Positions 16,728-58,198 of a stretch of 64,000 bases of DNA are shown here, piece after piece. How positions within the stretch are numbered: position 1 is the stretch's first letter; each line of letters starts with the position of its first letter. Source of the stretch: Escherichia phage Turkey5; sequence record PQ471516.1; one strand, written 5' to 3'. Both the position numbers and the translations under genes were made by a program. The notes beneath the pieces were generated by a model, which was not told the origin of the DNA, made no database searches, and saw nothing but the letters and a program-made list of their open reading frames with translations.

Positions 16728-17156
16728 ATGAATATCGAACAAGTAATCCGCTCTAACGCTTTCTTCTCTGCTGAATCTGGTCGTGTTATCGAAGATATCA
16801 AAATCGAAGAACTGATGATCAACGTTAAGTACAAAGAACAGAACGAAGAAATGTCCAGCAGCATCTGTGCTCTACGTGCTCCATTCCGTAGTGAAAAAGC
16901 TAAGAAGCCAGCATATGTTCTAGCGATTGCTCTTGGTTGTGTAGTGAAGAAAGCTATTGACTCCAACCAACTAAATATCAAAGTTGCTCCAATGAACGAT
17001 GAAGAGAACATCAACCTGGACTTCGACGGTCAACTGTCTGAAGAAGAATTCTTCCAGCTTTCTCTGATTCATGACTTCCGTAGCATCAACTTTGACCACA
17101 TTCACTTCATCGACGAAATGGTTGAATTGGTTTCTCAGTACGAAGCTGAACTGTAA
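16728..17156 (+). CDS. family-A paralog (C-terminal EExFFQxS motif)
   Basis: SEEEFFQLSLIHDF near C-terminus; followed by strong terminator. Confidence 0.6.
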   Translation: MNIEQVIRSNAFFSAESGRVIEDIKIEELMINVKYKEQNEEMSSSICALRAPFRSEKAKKPAYVLAIALGCVVKKAIDSNQLNIKVAPMNDEENINLDFDGQLSEEEFFQLSLIHDFRSINFDHIHFIDEMVELVSQYEAEL

Positions 17157-17170
17157 TAAGTAATAAAACA

Positions 17171-17196
17171 AGCCTCCTTGAAAGGAGGCTTTTGTC
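17171..17196 (+). terminator. intrinsic terminator
   Basis: agcctcctt/aaggaggct hairpin followed by TTTTGTC. Confidence 0.65.
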
Positions 17197-17210
17197 ATAA
17201 GGATATGTAA

Positions 17211-17768
17211 ATGAAGTTAATAGAACAAATTCAAACCCTATCTAATCAGATTGCAGAGTTCTTGTCTGATAAAGAAGGATTTAAAGTAGAAATCACCCAT
17301 CACGGCGTAGGTATTGTCGTAACTTACCCAAGTGGTGATACAATGGATTATGATGTGTATGAGCTATTGTTATACACCCTAGCAGTACGTAAGCTCGGTA
17401 GTGATATCGAACTTAAAATCAACAAAGATGAAAATGGTAATGAAGTTTTTGCAGTAAACACTGATGCTAAACTTGACATTCCTGCTGGATTCACTAAAAT
17501 CAATGAATCATTTATTGGTTTTAAACATGATTCTATTCAGAGTGTTTTTATTGGTCGTCAGATTGCAAACACCCAATTCCCATATACTGTCATGACATTG
17601 TATAAAAATGGTAACTGGATGCGTCAGGATTTGGTAATGGCTGAAGTACTGTATGCACTAACCCATGACCTAAGCCTTGAACTCGTTGATAGTGCATTCT
17701 GCTTTAAACGTATTCGCAAACTATCTGCTGACATTCAAGCAGAACTAAAAGAACTAAATGATAAATAA
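17211..17768 (+). CDS. hypothetical protein
   Basis: ORF with RBS. Confidence 0.55.
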   Translation: MKLIEQIQTLSNQIAEFLSDKEGFKVEITHHGVGIVVTYPSGDTMDYDVYELLLYTLAVRKLGSDIELKINKDENGNEVFAVNTDAKLDIPAGFTKINESFIGFKHDSIQSVFIGRQIANTQFPYTVMTLYKNGNWMRQDLVMAEVLYALTHDLSLELVDSAFCFKRIRKLSADIQAELKELNDK

Positions 17769-17885
17769 ATGTACCAGAAATGGTTAACATAATCATGTTA
17801 CTTTCCTCCCTTATACAATAATGATTTGTTATTCCGCATTTTATTTTTTCATTTCTCTTTTTTCGTACAAATTCTTTTTCGTACT

Positions 17886-17910
17886 GCCCCTACTTAGGGG
17901 CATTTTTATT
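17886..17910 (+). terminator. intrinsic terminator
   Basis: gcccct/aggggc hairpin followed by ATTTTTATT. Confidence 0.55.
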
Positions 17911-17925
17911 GCCTAAAATAAAGTT

Positions 17926-17953
17926 TTGACATTTGATGATTAGGTGATATAAT
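17926..17953 (+). promoter_or_regulatory. sigma70-like promoter
   Basis: TTGACA, 16 nt, TATAAT. Confidence 0.55.
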
Positions 17954-17980
17954 GTTCATATACATCTTAGAGGATACATT

Positions 17981-18409
17981 ATGATTATCGATTTGCATTC
18001 ATTTTTTAATAAATTCAACGAAGCGGATATCCCTACGTGGGACGTGAAAATCAACCACACTAATAAATCATTGTGGCTACATAAAGGTAATGAATCAATC
18101 CAGATGATGATTAATGATGATTATGATATCACCCGCTTCTACCACATGGAAGAAAACAAAACCTTCGTTAAGGTTGCTTTCGACATATCTGATGATAATC
18201 TGTTCATCAACGTTCTGTCAGAAGGTTCTCATGTCCTGGTTGATGCTAAAATCAAAGAGATTAGTACTATCAAAAGTGAGGAAGGATTGTTTCAACGTTC
18301 AGTTATTGAAGACCTGTACAATGTAGAATACTCTGATCTTGTGAAGCTGAAGACAATCGTAGATAGTCTTAAAGCAAAAGCAAAAGAACTCATCAAAGAG
18401 GTATACTAA
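17981..18409 (+). CDS. family-A paralog
   Basis: SEEGLFQRSVIEDL motif. Confidence 0.6.
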   Translation: MIIDLHSFFNKFNEADIPTWDVKINHTNKSLWLHKGNESIQMMINDDYDITRFYHMEENKTFVKVAFDISDDNLFINVLSEGSHVLVDAKIKEISTIKSEEGLFQRSVIEDLYNVEYSDLVKLKTIVDSLKAKAKELIKEVY

Positions 18410-18873
18410 TGAAAAGCATTATTCAAAACTGGAATCCAGACACAATCAGTACTGAAAGTAAATTGTCTTTTGCGTTCTCTATTATTAACATTGACGTTAT
18501 AGATTATCTATCTATTGATTCGATGGACGCAAAGGAATGCACACATCGTGTGTGGTATGATTATGACCAAGGTGTAGAACTGACACTTACGTATAACACA
18601 GAAGATTTGGTTCAAAGTGAACAATACAGTGTGTGCCTTGATGGTACTATTGGTATTCGAAAGCATTACTTAGATGATGGGAAAGTTATTTCCGAAACAA
18701 TCAATATCACAGATCATGGTTTTAATGAAGAATCTTTCTTCATGGAAAGTACTATGCAGAATTTTGGTACAATGACTTTTGAAGAGTATGTACATCTTAA
18801 AATTCTATATCGCAAAGTACTGGAAGTTGTTACCGAACTGGAAAAGGTGAACCAAAATGATCAACATTCATAA
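18409..18873 (+). CDS. family-A paralog
   Basis: NEESFFMESTMQNF motif. Confidence 0.6.
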   Translation: MKSIIQNWNPDTISTESKLSFAFSIINIDVIDYLSIDSMDAKECTHRVWYDYDQGVELTLTYNTEDLVQSEQYSVCLDGTIGIRKHYLDDGKVISETINITDHGFNEESFFMESTMQNFGTMTFEEYVHLKILYRKVLEVVTELEKVNQNDQHS

Positions 18874-56427: not shown

Positions 56428-56439
56428 TAGAGGAACACT

Positions 56440-56706
56440 ATGAAACTTAAAATTGAATACAGTGGTTTCTGTATGCGTAAAAATACTGAATTTGTAAACC
56501 GCACTAAAGGTTCAGAACTCTTTTTTAAAGAGATGCAAATTCCTTATGTAATTGAGACAGTTGGAGATCGTGAAGTACTGTCCTATGAAGAATACACTAA
56601 AGTAGATGTACCGTGGTATTCTGAGCACATGTATATGGACATGGCAGAACGTTACAATTGCGAATTTATTATTAAACCAAAAACTATCACAATCAAATTT
56701 AACTAA
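56440..56706 (+). CDS. hypothetical small protein
   Basis: ORF with RBS AGAGGAA. Confidence 0.5.
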   Translation: MKLKIEYSGFCMRKNTEFVNRTKGSELFFKEMQIPYVIETVGDREVLSYEEYTKVDVPWYSEHMYMDMAERYNCEFIIKPKTITIKFN

Positions 56707-56717
56707 GGTAAAATAAA

Positions 56718-57011
56718 ATGATCAGTGCTTCAGTGAATGCCAATATTGTTTCAGATGTAAATTTAATTAAAGAATGCACAGATAATGATACTCGTGATCT
56801 TTATATTAACAACGTCATTGAGCAATATGGAAACATGGGTGTTATGGAGTTCGTCCGCTTAAACGGTGAACTAATCAAGAATAAGATTCGTCTTAAACTT
56901 GCGGTTCATCCAAAGGCGTGGGCATTCACAATGAAGTACGCAGAAGATATGTTAGAGCTACGCCGCAGTACTGTTTACGAACGTTTACATAATGGCACAT
57001 TAGAGGGTTAA
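56718..57011 (+). CDS. hypothetical small protein
   Basis: ORF. Confidence 0.5.
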   Translation: MISASVNANIVSDVNLIKECTDNDTRDLYINNVIEQYGNMGVMEFVRLNGELIKNKIRLKLAVHPKAWAFTMKYAEDMLELRRSTVYERLHNGTLEG

Positions 57012-57012
57012 T

Positions 57013-57258
57013 ATGAAAAAGTTTGCATTGGGATTGGCTTTTCTTGCATTGAGTGCTTCTTCGTTTGCAGGGCAAGCAGAATATGATCAACCACGTTCTG
57101 TGAAGTGTGTAGATTTGCGTGGGGGAATTATATCTTATGATGAACATGAAGTACGACGTGCTAAAATTGATAGTGATGGAACAACGGTAATACTGAAGGA
57201 TGGAAAATTCATTCAATTCAGTCCCGCAGTTCAATGTATCACGGTTTTACAAGAATAA
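57013..57258 (+). CDS. small secreted protein
   Basis: Signal peptide MKKFALGLAFLALSASSFA. Confidence 0.55.
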   Translation: MKKFALGLAFLALSASSFAGQAEYDQPRSVKCVDLRGGIISYDEHEVRRAKIDSDGTTVILKDGKFIQFSPAVQCITVLQE

Positions 57259-57325
57259 AAGCTTTATTGATCTATATCAATTTTCATTACCAAAATGTAA
57301 ATATTAATGAGTAAAATATATTTTC

Positions 57326-57574
57326 ATGGAGGTTTATATGGAAGTTGTTATTATAATATGTGCATTTATTTCTTTGATAGTAATGTTATCTCCAACTTTT
57401 ATTGCACACAAATTGAAGAACAATAATGCTGAAGCAATAACATACGTTAACATTTGTTGTGTAATGACATATGGAATACTGTTGTTCTTTACTGAATTTA
57501 CTTTTATTCCTATAGTTGTATGTTCATCAATGTTCATATGGTTATTCTTACTGTATGAATCTATTAAAAAATAA
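57326..57574 (+). CDS. small membrane protein
   Basis: Three hydrophobic segments in 82 aa. Confidence 0.5.
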   Translation: MEVYMEVVIIICAFISLIVMLSPTFIAHKLKNNNAEAITYVNICCVMTYGILLFFTEFTFIPIVVCSSMFIWLFLLYESIKK

Positions 57575-57583
57575 TCAATAACT

Positions 57584-57616
57584 GGGTTGACCGAAGTCAA
57601 CCCTTTGTTGTATAGT
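57584..57616 (+). terminator. terminator-promoter module (reverse-loop variant)
   Basis: gggttgac-cgaa-gtcaaccc, TTTGTTG, TATAGT 18 nt after TTGACC. Confidence 0.6.
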
Positions 57617-57625
57617 GAGGTTCTT

Positions 57626-58198
57626 ATGAATCGTAAAGGCCGCTTCAAAGTATCAAAGAAAAATAAGAGTTCCAAATTTAAGCCCATTGTTATATCCGTG
57701 AAAAGTAAGCCTGAATTAACTGCTCTTAGTCATAAGATTGTTTCACCTAAGATTAAAGTATCTTACATTAATTCGTTAAAATTCCAAAAGGTAAAACCAC
57801 AAGACCAACTCATTTCACTTATATTTGAACGTAATGATTTTGAGATATCAGTCGATGATTATAGAGGCTATAATGCTGGCTTCATTAATGTAACTTGTAA
57901 TAAAGAACTAACTGCGTTAGAAAATTTGACATGTATAATAAATCTTGATAAAGGGGTGGTGACGTACCAATTTGTACATTTAACCAATATCAATAATGGT
58001 ATGGGTGTGCAATCCAGAATAATAGTACCTACATGTGATGAGACTAGTTTAGCGAAGCTCAATGAAGAAGAATATTTTCAAGAAAGTATTGTAACTGAGC
58101 ATTTGGATGTTATAATAGAAACCTACAAAGAATGCGTATGGGTTTTGAACGCAATCAAACCTAAATTATGTTTAATGAATATAGTTCGTGATTTGTAA
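57626..58198 (+). CDS. family-A paralog
   Basis: NEEEYFQESIVTEH motif; GAGG RBS before ATG 57626. Confidence 0.55.
   Translation: MNRKGRFKVSKKNKSSKFKPIVISVKSKPELTALSHKIVSPKIKVSYINSLKFQKVKPQDQLISLIFERNDFEISVDDYRGYNAGFINVTCNKELTALENLTCIINLDKGVVTYQFVHLTNINNGMGVQSRIIVPTCDETSLAKLNEEEYFQESIVTEHLDVIIETYKECVWVLNAIKPKLCLMNIVRDL

What the first reader, a model, noticed from the sequence alone, without database searches (positions are those of the whole stretch)
16728..58198. About 20 diverged paralogs of a small acidic protein sharing a C-terminal T-E-E-x-[FY]-F-Q-x-S-[LT]-[IV] motif
Twenty ORFs of about 120-170 aa carry the same short motif 25-45 residues from the C-terminus (SEEEFFQLSLIHD, TEEGFFQESLVQN, TEEALFQLSTIQD, TEEKFFQYSLVND, TEEMFFQMSLVFD, TEDVYFQMSTVYD, TEEEFFQVSLFHD, NEEEYFQESIVTE and others), while the rest of each protein is strongly diverged. 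They sit in two tight tandem clusters (16728-20140 and 35770-39217) plus scattered copies at 22200, 27783, 28216, 28704, 30659, 32410, 52156 and 57626, several interleaved with the tRNA genes. Each has its own RBS, so they look like independently translated genes, and the proteins are rich in Asp/Glu. A conserved anchor motif with a hypervariable remainder, amplified to about a third of the ORFs in a 40-kb stretch, is the pattern expected of an arms-race family (for example host-defence inhibitors, mimics or decoys), but no function can be read from sequence.
Basis: seen in the sequence. Interest (0 to 1): 0.85.

Follow-up and report, generated by a model that had tools for sequence, protein, structure and literature searches.

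The report
Uncharacterised jumbo-phage early protein multigene family
A giant E. coli phage carries about 22 very diverged copies of one small acidic early protein, all sharing a single conserved helix motif; related phages hold arrays of up to 35 copies, and no library or paper I searched describes the family or gives it a function.

Summary
The window comes from an Asteriusvirus (121Q/RaK2-like) jumbo coliphage. It holds 19 intact members, one copy broken by a 1-nt deletion, and two degenerate copies of one protein family.

The shared motif is [ST]-E-E-x-[FYL]-F-[QM]-x-S-[TL]-[IVL]-x-[DN]. The core pattern occurs 16 times against 0.02 expected. A profile built only from 90 foreign homologues recovers the members over nearly their full length.

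The family has no Pfam domain and no sequence relative with a solved structure. PHROGs splits it into more than 15 families of unknown function. I found no paper that describes it.

The genes lie in a region dense with perfect sigma-70 promoters. They are unusually acidic and under purifying selection (dN/dS 0.2-0.3). They diverge faster than their neighbours. They sit at syntenic sites in 121Q and RaK2, and one metagenomic contig has 35 in tandem.

My best reading is a repertoire of host-targeting binders or decoys. This is inferred, not shown.

The parts
16728..17156 (+). Family member, 142 aa; motif SEEEFFQLSLIHD at 17037-17075
   Evidence: Foreign-homologue profile E 5.6e-16; phrog_23322, unknown function; 70% identical to 121Q gp80
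17981..18409 (+). Family member, 142 aa; motif SEEGLFQRSVIED; first of five contiguous members; perfect sigma-70 promoter match at 17926-17953
   Evidence: E 4.4e-17; promoter; positional orthologue in 121Q only 27% identical
18409..18873 (+). Family member, 154 aa; motif NEESFFMESTMQN (Met in place of Gln)
   Evidence: E 1.1e-13
18857..19234 (+). Family member, 125 aa; motif TEEELFQQSLIEA; overlaps the previous gene by 17 nt
   Evidence: E 2.1e-10
19238..19693 (+). Family member, 151 aa; motif TEEGFFQESLVQN
   Evidence: E 1.8e-12
19694..20140 (+). Family member, 148 aa; motif TEEALFQLSTIQD
   Evidence: E 7.5e-16
22200..22652 (+). Family member, 150 aa; weakened motif DDDFVFQQSTLTP
   Evidence: E 9.1e-8 with the foreign-homologue profile; 43% identical to 121Q gp94
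23051..23479 (+).
   Evidence: E 4.2e-3; E 5.6e-5 with the A2 profile, which does not contain it; hhalign E 4.5e-3; the positional orthologues in 121Q and fEgEco12 are clear members
27783..28169 (+). Degenerate member, 128 aa; motif SEEDEFQKLTTIG (Ser replaced by Leu)
   Evidence: Weak on its own, E 0.087; hhalign E 2e-4, but against profile A2, which contains this sequence; the 121Q positional orthologue is a member
28219..28722 (+). Family member, 167 aa, with a basic C-terminal tail (pI 7.0); motif DEAVHFQESLICD
   Evidence: E 1.4e-12; start taken from the JNE01 annotation
28719..29132 (+). Family member, 137 aa; motif LEEEEFQYSLVQD; ATGA overlap with the previous gene
   Evidence: E 1.1e-5
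30659..31048 (+). Family member, 129 aa, just after tRNA-Leu; motif TEEELFMKSTIQN
   Evidence: E 2.8e-10; tRNA
32410..32775 (+). Family member, 121 aa, between the tRNA-Ser genes; motif NEEAYFQMSTVQE
   Evidence: E 7.6e-6; phrog_34619
35770..36210 (+). Family member, 146 aa, and the protein that was modelled; motif TEEKFFQYSLVND; variable acidic loop between strands 5 and 6, around residues 76-90
   Evidence: E 4.5e-14; AlphaFold model pLDDT 86.7; changes among orthologues are concentrated in strands 4-6 and this loop
36677..37099 (+). Family member, 140 aa; motif TEEMFFQMSLVFD
   Evidence: E 9.1e-11
37092..37511 (+). Family member, 139 aa; motif TEDVYFQMSTVYD
   Evidence: E 1.6e-15; by tblastn only JNE01 is close (95%), the next hits are about 30% identical
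37489..37932 (+). Family member, 147 aa; motif NDSEYFQDSTIKE
   Evidence: E 3.3e-10
37914..38348 (+). Family member, 144 aa; motif TEEEFFQVSLFHD
   Evidence: E 1.5e-11
38350..38757 (+). Family member, 135 aa; motif SEEEHFMDSTVEN
   Evidence: E 2.1e-12
38750..39217 (+). Family member, 155 aa; weakened motif DCARYFQLSTLYS
   Evidence: E 1.5e-5
52156..52640 (+). Member split by a frameshift: N-terminal part 52156-52446, C-terminal part with motif TEEKVFQQSLVHN in frame 52434-52640
   Evidence: E 2.3e-6 for the C-terminal piece; an A6 run here against A7 in the intact 166-aa JNE01 gene
57626..58198 (+). Long-form member, 190 aa, with a basic N-terminal extension (pI 9.0); motif NEEEYFQESIVTE
   Evidence: E 4.5e-8; phrog_33518

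Best explanation
These genes form a multigene family of small (about 120-190 aa), soluble, mostly acidic proteins. They are probably made early in infection from host sigma-70 promoters.

All members share one predicted alpha/beta scaffold: an N-terminal amphipathic helix, a six-stranded antiparallel meander sheet, and two C-terminal helices that lie on one face of the sheet. The conserved motif is the start signal and inward face of the second helix. The Thr/Ser caps the helix. Glu-Glu sits at its first turn. Phe, Gln and Ser lie on the conserved, presumably sheet-facing, side. The motif is therefore the keystone of the fold, and possibly also part of a conserved acidic or oligomerisation surface.

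The opposite, solvent-exposed face of the sheet and the loop between strands 5 and 6 are free to vary. I infer that each paralogue uses this variable surface to bind a different target. The targets would most likely be host proteins, such as basic nucleic-acid-binding or defence proteins. The family would then act as a repertoire of inhibitors or decoys that the phage keeps for host takeover and counter-defence.

Shown here: family membership, the predicted fold, acidity, purifying selection, fast divergence, synteny and expansion. Inferred: early expression, the binding role, and host targets.
For: Family and motif:
- Membership and motif enrichment are established.
- Constraint acts on the protein, not the DNA. 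The invariant Phe uses TTC and TTT 10:10, and the invariant Ser uses both AGY (13) and TCN (7) codons.

Fold:
- Model with pLDDT 86.7 and pTM 0.78, with the motif in helix 105-114.
- Variable positions 107, 111 and 115 form one helical stripe, and the rest of the helix is conserved. In the strands, conserved hydrophobic positions alternate with variable polar ones.

Properties of the genes:
- Acidic: pI 4.6 against 5.75, p = 1.4e-5.
- No hydrophobic run of 15 or more residues.
- None of the members is labelled a virion structural protein in the 121Q and RaK2 records, although some of their neighbours are.
- Early region: all 27 promoter-like sites with at least 11 of 12 matches in 16-55 kb are on the + strand, and 8 are perfect.

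Evolution:
- Functional genes: pooled dN/dS 0.19, 0.23 and 0.32, against about 0.11 for neighbours.
- Fast divergence and turnover: 40% against 68% identity to 121Q (p = 1e-4); 7 of 20 copies without a reciprocal best hit; JNE01 has one extra copy.
- Changes among close orthologues are concentrated in strands 4-6 and an acidic indel-rich loop.
- The family is kept at syntenic places in 121Q (at least 22 copies) and RaK2 (at least 14).
- There are arrays of 35 and 9 in metagenomic phages.

Context:
- Dcm methyltransferase and tRNA genes in the window. Dam, Gad2, Rnl1 and PNKP lie next to the 35-gene array.
Against: - There is no functional or interaction evidence of any kind.
- No similarity to any known anti-defence or DNA-mimic family.
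- dN/dS is well below 1, and there are no young duplicates.
- Copies hold their positions across phage genera that infect different hosts. This could equally mean conserved roles within the phage itself.
- Early timing rests on promoter consensus only.
- Many small phage early proteins are acidic, so acidity is weak evidence.
- Gene neighbourhood is weak evidence in a region where nearly everything is unannotated.
Confidence: 0.45

Rival explanations
1. The family serves the phage itself. For example, the proteins could be acidic p32-like oligomeric chaperones or organisers for basic phage proteins, nucleoprotein or replication complexes, with each paralogue dedicated to a different phage client.
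For: - p32 uses its helices for trimer contacts (PMC5828189), and the helices are the conserved part of this family.
- Positions are kept across phage genera with different hosts.
- Selection is purifying.
Against: - There is no profile-to-sequence signal against human p32, E 0.6-0.9.
- Divergence is faster than in neighbouring genes and copies turn over. This is unusual for housekeeping partners of conserved phage proteins.
- The genes sit in the early accessory region, not in the replication or structural modules.
Confidence: 0.2
2. The family is an immunity or exclusion repertoire. Each paralogue would neutralise a different toxin or effector from competing phages or from bacterial polymorphic-toxin systems, in the way tandem poly-immunity loci do.
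For: - Long tandem arrays of highly diverged paralogues of one small fold resemble poly-immunity gene arrays; this comparison rests on my own knowledge of SUKH/Imm loci.
- Jumbo phages are reported to carry many adaptations for biological conflicts (PMC7824862).
Against: - No match to SUKH or Imm families. One member of 111 hits SUKH_6 at E 0.02, which is chance level.
- No toxin genes were identified next to the arrays.
Confidence: 0.12
3. The conserved motif is a shared signal rather than fold core. It could be a protease cleavage site (it resembles the TEV site E-x-x-Y-x-Q/S), a degron, or a docking peptide that delivers variable cargo domains to one common machine.
For: - The motif is far more conserved than the rest of the protein: E105 in 105 of 111 sequences, F109 in 111 of 111, S112 in 106 of 111.
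- E-E-x-[FY]-F-Q-x-S recalls ENLYFQ/S (comparison from my own knowledge).
Against: - The motif lies inside a confidently predicted helix (pLDDT 89-97), and only one stripe of that helix varies.
- Ser is at P2' rather than P1', and the P1' position is variable (E, Q, L, Y, R and others).
- Conservation continues through the following turn and the third helix (D116, T121, Y122, E123, D124 and the hydrophobic positions), as expected for a folded unit.
Confidence: 0.08
4. The copies are functionless remnants of old duplications, or over-called ORFs.
For: One copy is frameshifted in this genome. Two copies have a degenerate motif.
Against: - dN/dS is 0.19-0.32 over 12-18 genes in three comparisons.
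- Intact ORFs with ribosome-binding sites.
- Retained at syntenic places in 121Q and RaK2.
- 109 clusters at 50% identity in public data keep the motif.
Confidence: 0.03

Closest known systems
p32 / gC1qBP / MAM33 family (mitochondrial acidic matrix proteins; PDB 1P32, 3QV0, 3JV1, 1YQF)
   Same: - Strongly acidic.
- Same order of elements: one N-terminal helix, a run of consecutive antiparallel strands, and two C-terminal helices on one side of the sheet.
   Different: - Six strands here, seven in p32; 120-190 aa against about 180-210 aa.
- The scores are in the grey zone.
- No Pfam MAM33 hit and no hhalign signal against p32.
- MAM33 is a eukaryotic single-copy gene, not a phage multigene family.
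- A trimeric state was not tested here.
Viral multigene families that set host range or counter immunity (ASFV MGF360/505, poxvirus ankyrin and Bcl-2-like families); comparison from my own knowledge
   Same: Many diverged paralogues of one scaffold, clustered in variable genome regions, with gain and loss between related viruses and early expression.
   Different: Different viruses, hosts and folds. Those families have experimental links to host range, and this one has none.
Acidic phage anti-restriction or DNA-mimic proteins (T7 Ocr, T4 Arn, ArdA); comparison from my own knowledge
   Same: Small, acidic, early, cytoplasmic phage proteins that inhibit host nucleic-acid-binding defence proteins.
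   Different: No sequence or fold similarity was detected. Those are single genes, not families of 20-35 copies.
[quoted passage not shown]
   Same: Large paralogue expansions have been noted as a way jumbo genomes grow (PMC7824862; PMC5646251).
   Different: - A different protein family.
- The array reported for 121Q consists of very similar genes, whereas these copies are only about 16% identical. Candidate arrays (RCC1-like gp234-248 and the roughly 60-aa genes gp249-265) were seen at 117-135 kb of 121Q. Which one Hua et al. meant was not confirmed.
- I found no description of the present family.
PHROGs 23322, 17453, 24941, 24510, 30841, 30548, 34619, 33518, 35192 and others
   Same: Window members match these phage orthologous groups, some over their full length.
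   Different: All are labelled unknown function. PHROGs splits the family into more than 15 groups and does not treat it as one family.

Membership tests
MAM33 / p32 (Pfam PF02330) | Significant match to the Pfam MAM33 profile or to p32 sequences | tested here: not met
   No Pfam hit for 10 members at E <= 1, nor in any of the 111 members. hhalign of the family profile against verified human p32 gives E 0.6-0.9.
MAM33 / p32 (Pfam PF02330) | Fold: N-terminal helix, seven consecutive antiparallel strands, two C-terminal helices on one side of the sheet | tested here: inconclusive
MAM33 / p32 (Pfam PF02330) | Doughnut-shaped homotrimer built through the helices | not testable with these tools
   No multimer prediction is available. 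The trimer description comes from PMC5828189.
MAM33 / p32 (Pfam PF02330) | Strongly acidic protein | tested here: met
   Median pI 4.6; 18 of 20 members are below 5.5.
SUKH / SMI1-KNR4 immunity proteins | Match to the SUKH Pfam profiles | tested here: not met
   Only 1 of 111 members hits SUKH_6, at E 0.021.
Known anti-defence proteins (Ocr, ArdA, Gad1/2, Tad1/2, Acb and others) | Sequence or fold similarity to a characterised member | tested here: not met
Substrates of a TEV-like (3C-type) protease | Exposed, extended E-x-x-Y-x-Q followed directly by a small residue (Ser or Gly) at P1' | tested here: not met
   The residue after Gln is variable, and Ser is two positions on. The segment is a helix with pLDDT 89-97.
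Virion or injected proteins | Labelled as a virion structural protein in the records of related phages | tested here: not met
   None of the members in the 121Q or RaK2 records carries the 'virion structural protein' label, although neighbouring genes do. The basis of those labels was not checked.

The most novel reading that the evidence does not exclude
This is a new superfamily of phage counter-defence or host-takeover proteins built on one p32-like acidic scaffold. Dozens of paralogues per genome would each neutralise a different host protein. The conserved helices might also let paralogues form mixed oligomers, giving combinatorial binding surfaces. On this reading it would be one of the largest binder libraries found so far in phages.
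Probability: 0.25. Interest if true: 0.85.

Novelty: new variant of a known kind. Interest (0 to 1): 0.62.

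Why it matters
Most genes of jumbo phages have no known function. Here a single fold accounts for about 22 genes in this window, at least 22 in 121Q, at least 14 in RaK2, and 35 consecutive genes in one environmental phage.

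If the family is a repertoire of host-targeting binders, it gives one tractable handle on a large block of this unexplored gene content. Its conserved helix motif and small soluble proteins make it easy to recognise, express and pull down. It could also reveal new host defence or takeover targets in Enterobacterales.

The family profile also joins more than 15 separate PHROGs into one group.

Tried and rejected
- **Structure from the window paralogues alone.** Using only the 20 window copies gave a poor model (pLDDT 53). Adding 91 foreign homologues was needed.
- **Related-locus search with the alignment.** A degenerate DNA pattern for the motif found only 10 stretches in IMG/VR.
- **AFDB Foldseek.** The library was unavailable.
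- **Word-index protein search with the profile.** It returned mostly orthologues of the first sequence and no names or domains.
- **A RecQ-1-like HTH hit.** It came from one representative (P0073), a 115-aa product on a 1-kb contig in which only the C-terminal part matches the family. I judged it a chimeric or truncated gene call, not an informative fusion.
- **TEV-like cleavage site.** Rejected on helix prediction and the variable P1' position.
- **DNA-level repeat or recombination signal at the motif.** Rejected because synonymous codons are fully mixed. The repeat finder recovers only the motif-coding stretches at 63-85% identity.
- **Hidden members among neighbouring ORFs of similar size** (17211, 21658, 22653, 39230, 39733, 40675). 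None is supported.
- **dN/dS against 121Q or fEgEco12.** Not attempted, because positional orthologues are only 27-43% identical, so synonymous sites would be saturated.
- **The '>30 very similar genes' array reported for 121Q.** It is not this family.
- **Pfam on ten neighbouring genes.** Nothing useful was found.

Full report
**Where the window comes from.** Bases 16000-24000 match Escherichia phage vB_EcoM_JNE01 (355.6 kb, genus Asteriusvirus) at 97.9% identity. They match other jumbo coliphages of the 121Q/PBECO4 group only in part, at about 78-80%. Every gene in the corresponding JNE01 region that belongs to the finding is annotated 'hypothetical protein'. The window also carries seven tRNA genes between 30480 and 35754.

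- A loose pattern, [FYLH]F[QM].S[LTIV], finds 18 sites, all on the + strand and none on the minus strand. Seventeen of them are the family motif; the eighteenth (30653) lies in the upstream extension of the 30557 ORF.
- In + strand ORFs, E[ED]..F[QM].S occurs 16 times against 0.024 expected from 500 within-ORF shuffles. The strict form occurs 12 times against 0.
- The similarity is not limited to the motif. In leave-one-out tests each of 18 seed ORFs is recognised by a profile of the others, at E 4e-11 to 1e-2.
- A profile built only from 90 homologues from other sources, none more than 50% identical to a window member, scores 19 intact window ORFs plus one fragment at E <= 1.5e-5, mostly over the full length.
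- hhalign of the family profile against every + strand ORF of 90-260 aa in the window gives two clean groups. Nineteen ORFs are strong (E <= 3e-6). Two are weak: 27783 at 2e-4 and 23039 at 4.5e-3. Nothing else is close.

- ORFs 17211-17768 and 36224-36418 sit inside the clusters but are not members.
- The copy 'at 52156' is split. A 1-nt deletion in an A7 run moves the motif-bearing C-terminal part into frame 52434-52640. The gene is intact (166 aa) in JNE01.
- 27783 and the previously missed 23051-23479 form a degenerate subtype in which the motif Ser is Leu. Their positional orthologues in 121Q, and for 23051 also in fEgEco12, are clear members.
- The count is therefore 19 intact, 1 frameshifted and 2 degenerate copies. 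That is 20 of 43 gene-like ORFs in 16728-39217 and 23 of 86 in 16728-58198.

**What the proteins look like.** Using only the 20 window paralogues as the alignment, AlphaFold gave a poor model (pLDDT 53). A profile search of 1.84 billion representative proteins found 109 clusters at E <= 1e-3. All are 81-217 aa, and nearly all carry [ST]EEx[FYL]F[QM]xS[TL][IVL]x[DN] about 30-45 residues from the C-terminus.

With a 111-sequence alignment the model for member 35770 reached pLDDT 86.7 and pTM 0.78. It has:
- helix 5-15;
- six strands between residues 20 and 98;
- helix 105-114, which is the motif;
- helix 122-132.

Column statistics show what is conserved:
- In the motif: T104 (62 Thr, 30 Ser), E105 (105 of 111), E106 (97), F/Y/L108, F109 (111 of 111), Q110 (93 Gln, 17 Met), S112 (106), T/L113, I/V114 and D/N116.
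- After the motif: a second capping-type start, [TS]121-[YF]-E-D, followed by hydrophobic positions with helical spacing.
- In the first helix: L5, L9 and I13.
- In the strands: alternating hydrophobic positions I31, I33, Y36, I54, Y56, I58 and I74.

On a helical wheel the variable motif positions 107, 111 and 115 form a single stripe, and everything else is conserved. I read the motif as a helix start signal (N-cap Thr/Ser, acidic first turn, aromatic staple) plus the buried face of a helix packed on the sheet. It is the keystone of the fold, not a tag attached to a variable body. In the strands, conserved hydrophobic positions alternate with variable polar ones. This implies a two-layer arrangement, with the helices on one face of the sheet and the other face exposed and variable.

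**The constraint acts on the protein.** Among 20 copies the invariant Phe uses TTC and TTT 10:10, and Gln uses CAA and CAG 10:7. The invariant Ser uses both AGY (13) and TCN (7) codons, which cannot interconvert by a single synonymous step. The repeat finder recovers only the motif-coding stretches, at 63-85% identity. The motif is therefore not a DNA repeat or a recombination signal.

**Comparison with known families.**
- Pfam gives nothing for 10 members at E <= 1, and nothing consistent across 111 members.
- The profile finds no sequence relative among PDB chains.
- PHROGs places the members in more than 15 groups, all of unknown function.
- The top Foldseek PDB hit is also human p32, but it is not significant (E 0.09, TM about 0.3).
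[quoted passage not shown] The order of elements is the same here, with one strand fewer, and the proteins are acidic.
- hhalign of the family profile against the verified p32 sequence shows no signal, E 0.6-0.9.

I therefore call the family p32-like in topology only. Membership is not established.

**Literature.** Searches and the jumbo-phage papers I read (121Q, phAPEC6, CBB, Sharanji, and the comparative overview) do not describe this family. [quoted passage not shown] Arrays seen at 117-135 kb of 121Q (RCC1-like genes and roughly 60-aa genes) are candidates for it.

**Expression and cellular location (inferred).**
- All 27 sigma-70-type promoter matches with at least 11 of 12 consensus bases in 16-55 kb are on the + strand, and eight are perfect TTGACA-N16-18-TATAAT. 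Several sit just upstream of members or clusters, for example 17926-17953 before 17981, 30394-30421, and 35338-35366 before the second cluster. This is the signature of a phage early region read by host RNA polymerase.
- Members have no long hydrophobic segments.
- None of the members is labelled a virion structural protein in the 121Q and RaK2 records, although neighbouring genes are.
- They are more acidic than other window ORFs of 100-220 aa: pI 4.6 against 5.75, and net charge per residue -0.085 against -0.019, p = 1.4e-5.
- About 14 of 20 have a clear Shine-Dalgarno sequence. Several overlap the previous gene by 4-23 nt, which suggests coupled translation.

**Evolution.** Pooled dN/dS against three close relatives:

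| Relative | Family | Other genes | Source |
|---|---|---|---|
| JNE01 | 0.19 | about 0.11 | |
| L021 (metagenomic) | 0.23 | 0.11 | |
| L022 (metagenomic) | 0.32 | 0.12 | |

The JNE01 figure for other genes is my recalculation of the totals after removing one misaligned methyltransferase gene. Core genes in that comparison lie mostly at about 0.03-0.05. The copies are therefore functional genes under purifying selection, two to three times more relaxed than their neighbours.

- **Uneven change within one member.** Among close orthologues of 35770, the first 56 and last 55 residues are almost invariant. Strands 4-6 and an acidic, indel-rich loop between strands 5 and 6 change freely. Pairwise dN/dS for this gene is 0.5-2.1, but on few substitutions.
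- **Divergence from 121Q.** Over the longer distance to 121Q, members occupy the same positions. Reciprocal best hits are only 27-70% identical (median 40%), against a median of 68% for other genes and 60% for other genes of the variable region (Mann-Whitney p = 1e-4 and 1e-3). Seven of 20 copies in 121Q have no reciprocal best hit. JNE01 has one copy that this window lacks. Four consecutive genes (17981-19693) are 27-32% identical to their 121Q counterparts, and the fifth (19694-20140) is 43%, while the flanking genes are 64-92% identical.
- **Distribution.** RaK2, from a different genus that infects Klebsiella, has at least 14 members at syntenic places. A tblastn search with the profile consensus finds only giant RaK2-like phages of Escherichia, Klebsiella, Salmonella and Erwinia. 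BFVD matches include proteins of RaK2 and Pectobacterium phage CBB.
- **No young duplicates.** Within any one genome, paralogues are about 16% identical (maximum 27-33%), and adjacent copies are no more alike than distant ones.

**Larger arrays elsewhere.**
- A 53-kb metagenomic contig (Logan SRR26954460_1203) has 34 consecutive ORFs of 165-225 aa that all match the family, plus the next gene. That makes 35 in tandem from near the contig end. The array is followed by Dam, an HD-domain protein, Gad2 (anti-Gabija), T4-type RNA ligase 1 and polynucleotide kinase-phosphatase.
- An IMG/VR contig has nine long-form copies in tandem, and another contig has seven within 7 kb.
- Even in the 35-gene array the copies are only about 16% identical.

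**Interpretation.** The facts are: an old, maintained repertoire of one scaffold; a conserved core and helices; a variable exposed sheet face and loop; acidic charge; early-type promoters; accessory-region location; fast divergence and turnover under overall purifying selection; and counter-defence genes nearby in one relative.

My best reading (confidence about 0.45) is a library of binders or decoys aimed at different host proteins, plausibly basic nucleic-acid-binding or defence proteins. It corrects the structural picture and does not support an ongoing arms race.

The main rival (0.2) is a role inside the phage, as p32-like acidic oligomers serving basic phage clients. Synteny across host genera favours it and fast divergence counts against it. 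An immunity or exclusion repertoire (0.12), a shared docking or cleavage signal (0.08) and functionless remnants (0.03) are less likely, for the reasons given under each rival. No function was tested, and none can be read from sequence.

**Novelty and score.** The family is present in databases as scattered hypothetical proteins. No library or paper I searched recognises it as one family or assigns it a function. Paralogue expansions in large viruses are a known kind of thing, so I rate this a new variant of a known kind. Interest is 0.62. The size, age and spread of the family, together with the 35-gene array of barely similar copies, would surprise a phage genomicist. The family also offers an unusually tractable route into unannotated jumbo-phage genes. 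The mechanism, however, remains inferred.

Noticed in passing
window 52156-52640: A family copy is broken by a single-A deletion in a homopolymer run (A6 here, A7 in JNE01). It also has a 15-nt in-frame deletion near the start. This could be a sequencing error, a recent pseudogene or a slippery run.
   Followed up: yes
window 30177-30368 and 31893-32375; also near 29292: A second mini-family of very small ORFs that begin MTHE[EQ]WM. It includes tandem 161-nt units at 31893-32053 and 32054-32214 (80% identical), with a further copy of the start sequence at 32212. JNE01 and 121Q each annotate three 165-nt genes at the corresponding place.
   Followed up: partly
window 61849-62181, 62181-62516, 62882-63232: Three adjacent small membrane proteins (110-116 aa) with similar N-terminal halves. 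They look like another tandem paralogue set that runs off the window.
   Followed up: no
window 54242-54640 / 55025-55384, 56718-57011 / 61549-61839, and 13123-13716 / 13691-14296: Further likely paralogue pairs, judged by eye from the translations. One is a secreted-looking pair sharing DG[DS][VI]Y.F. None was tested.
   Followed up: no
window 16000-55000, + strand: All 27 sigma-70 promoter matches with at least 11 of 12 consensus bases are on the + strand, and 8 are perfect. Three share a longer cassette ending in TGATATAATG (26412, 30387, 32308). A promoter plus tRNA-Ser unit is duplicated (31652-31786 and 32763-32897).
   Followed up: partly
window 20796-21656 compared with L001 24802-26691: The Dcm-type cytosine methyltransferase is 286 aa here and in 121Q. 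JNE01 annotates a 1890-nt gene at that place, so there is an insertion or fusion in JNE01.
   Followed up: no
window 32800-35100 compared with L001 37994-42400: The tRNA region differs between close relatives. JNE01 has an extra family member, two tRNA-Met genes, a 1.7-kb minus-strand gene and an HNH homing endonuclease. The window instead has a different HNH-like ORF at 33374-34078.
   Followed up: partly
L017 8571-16456 (Logan SRR26954460_1203): Immediately downstream of the 35-gene array lie Dam, an HD-domain protein, Gad2 (anti-Gabija), T4 RNA ligase 1 and PNKP. This is a counter-defence or RNA-repair neighbourhood.
   Followed up: partly
L018 27090-45195 (121Q 117-135 kb): About 14 tandem minus-strand RCC1-like 'DNA condensation' genes, followed by about 17 tandem genes of roughly 60 aa. 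[quoted passage not shown] Neither is this family.
   Followed up: partly
protein P0073 (ENA contig of 1046 nt): One representative joins the C-terminal half of a RecQ-1-like HTH domain (E 3.7e-12) to a truncated family member. This is probably a gene-call artefact on a short contig.
   Followed up: partly
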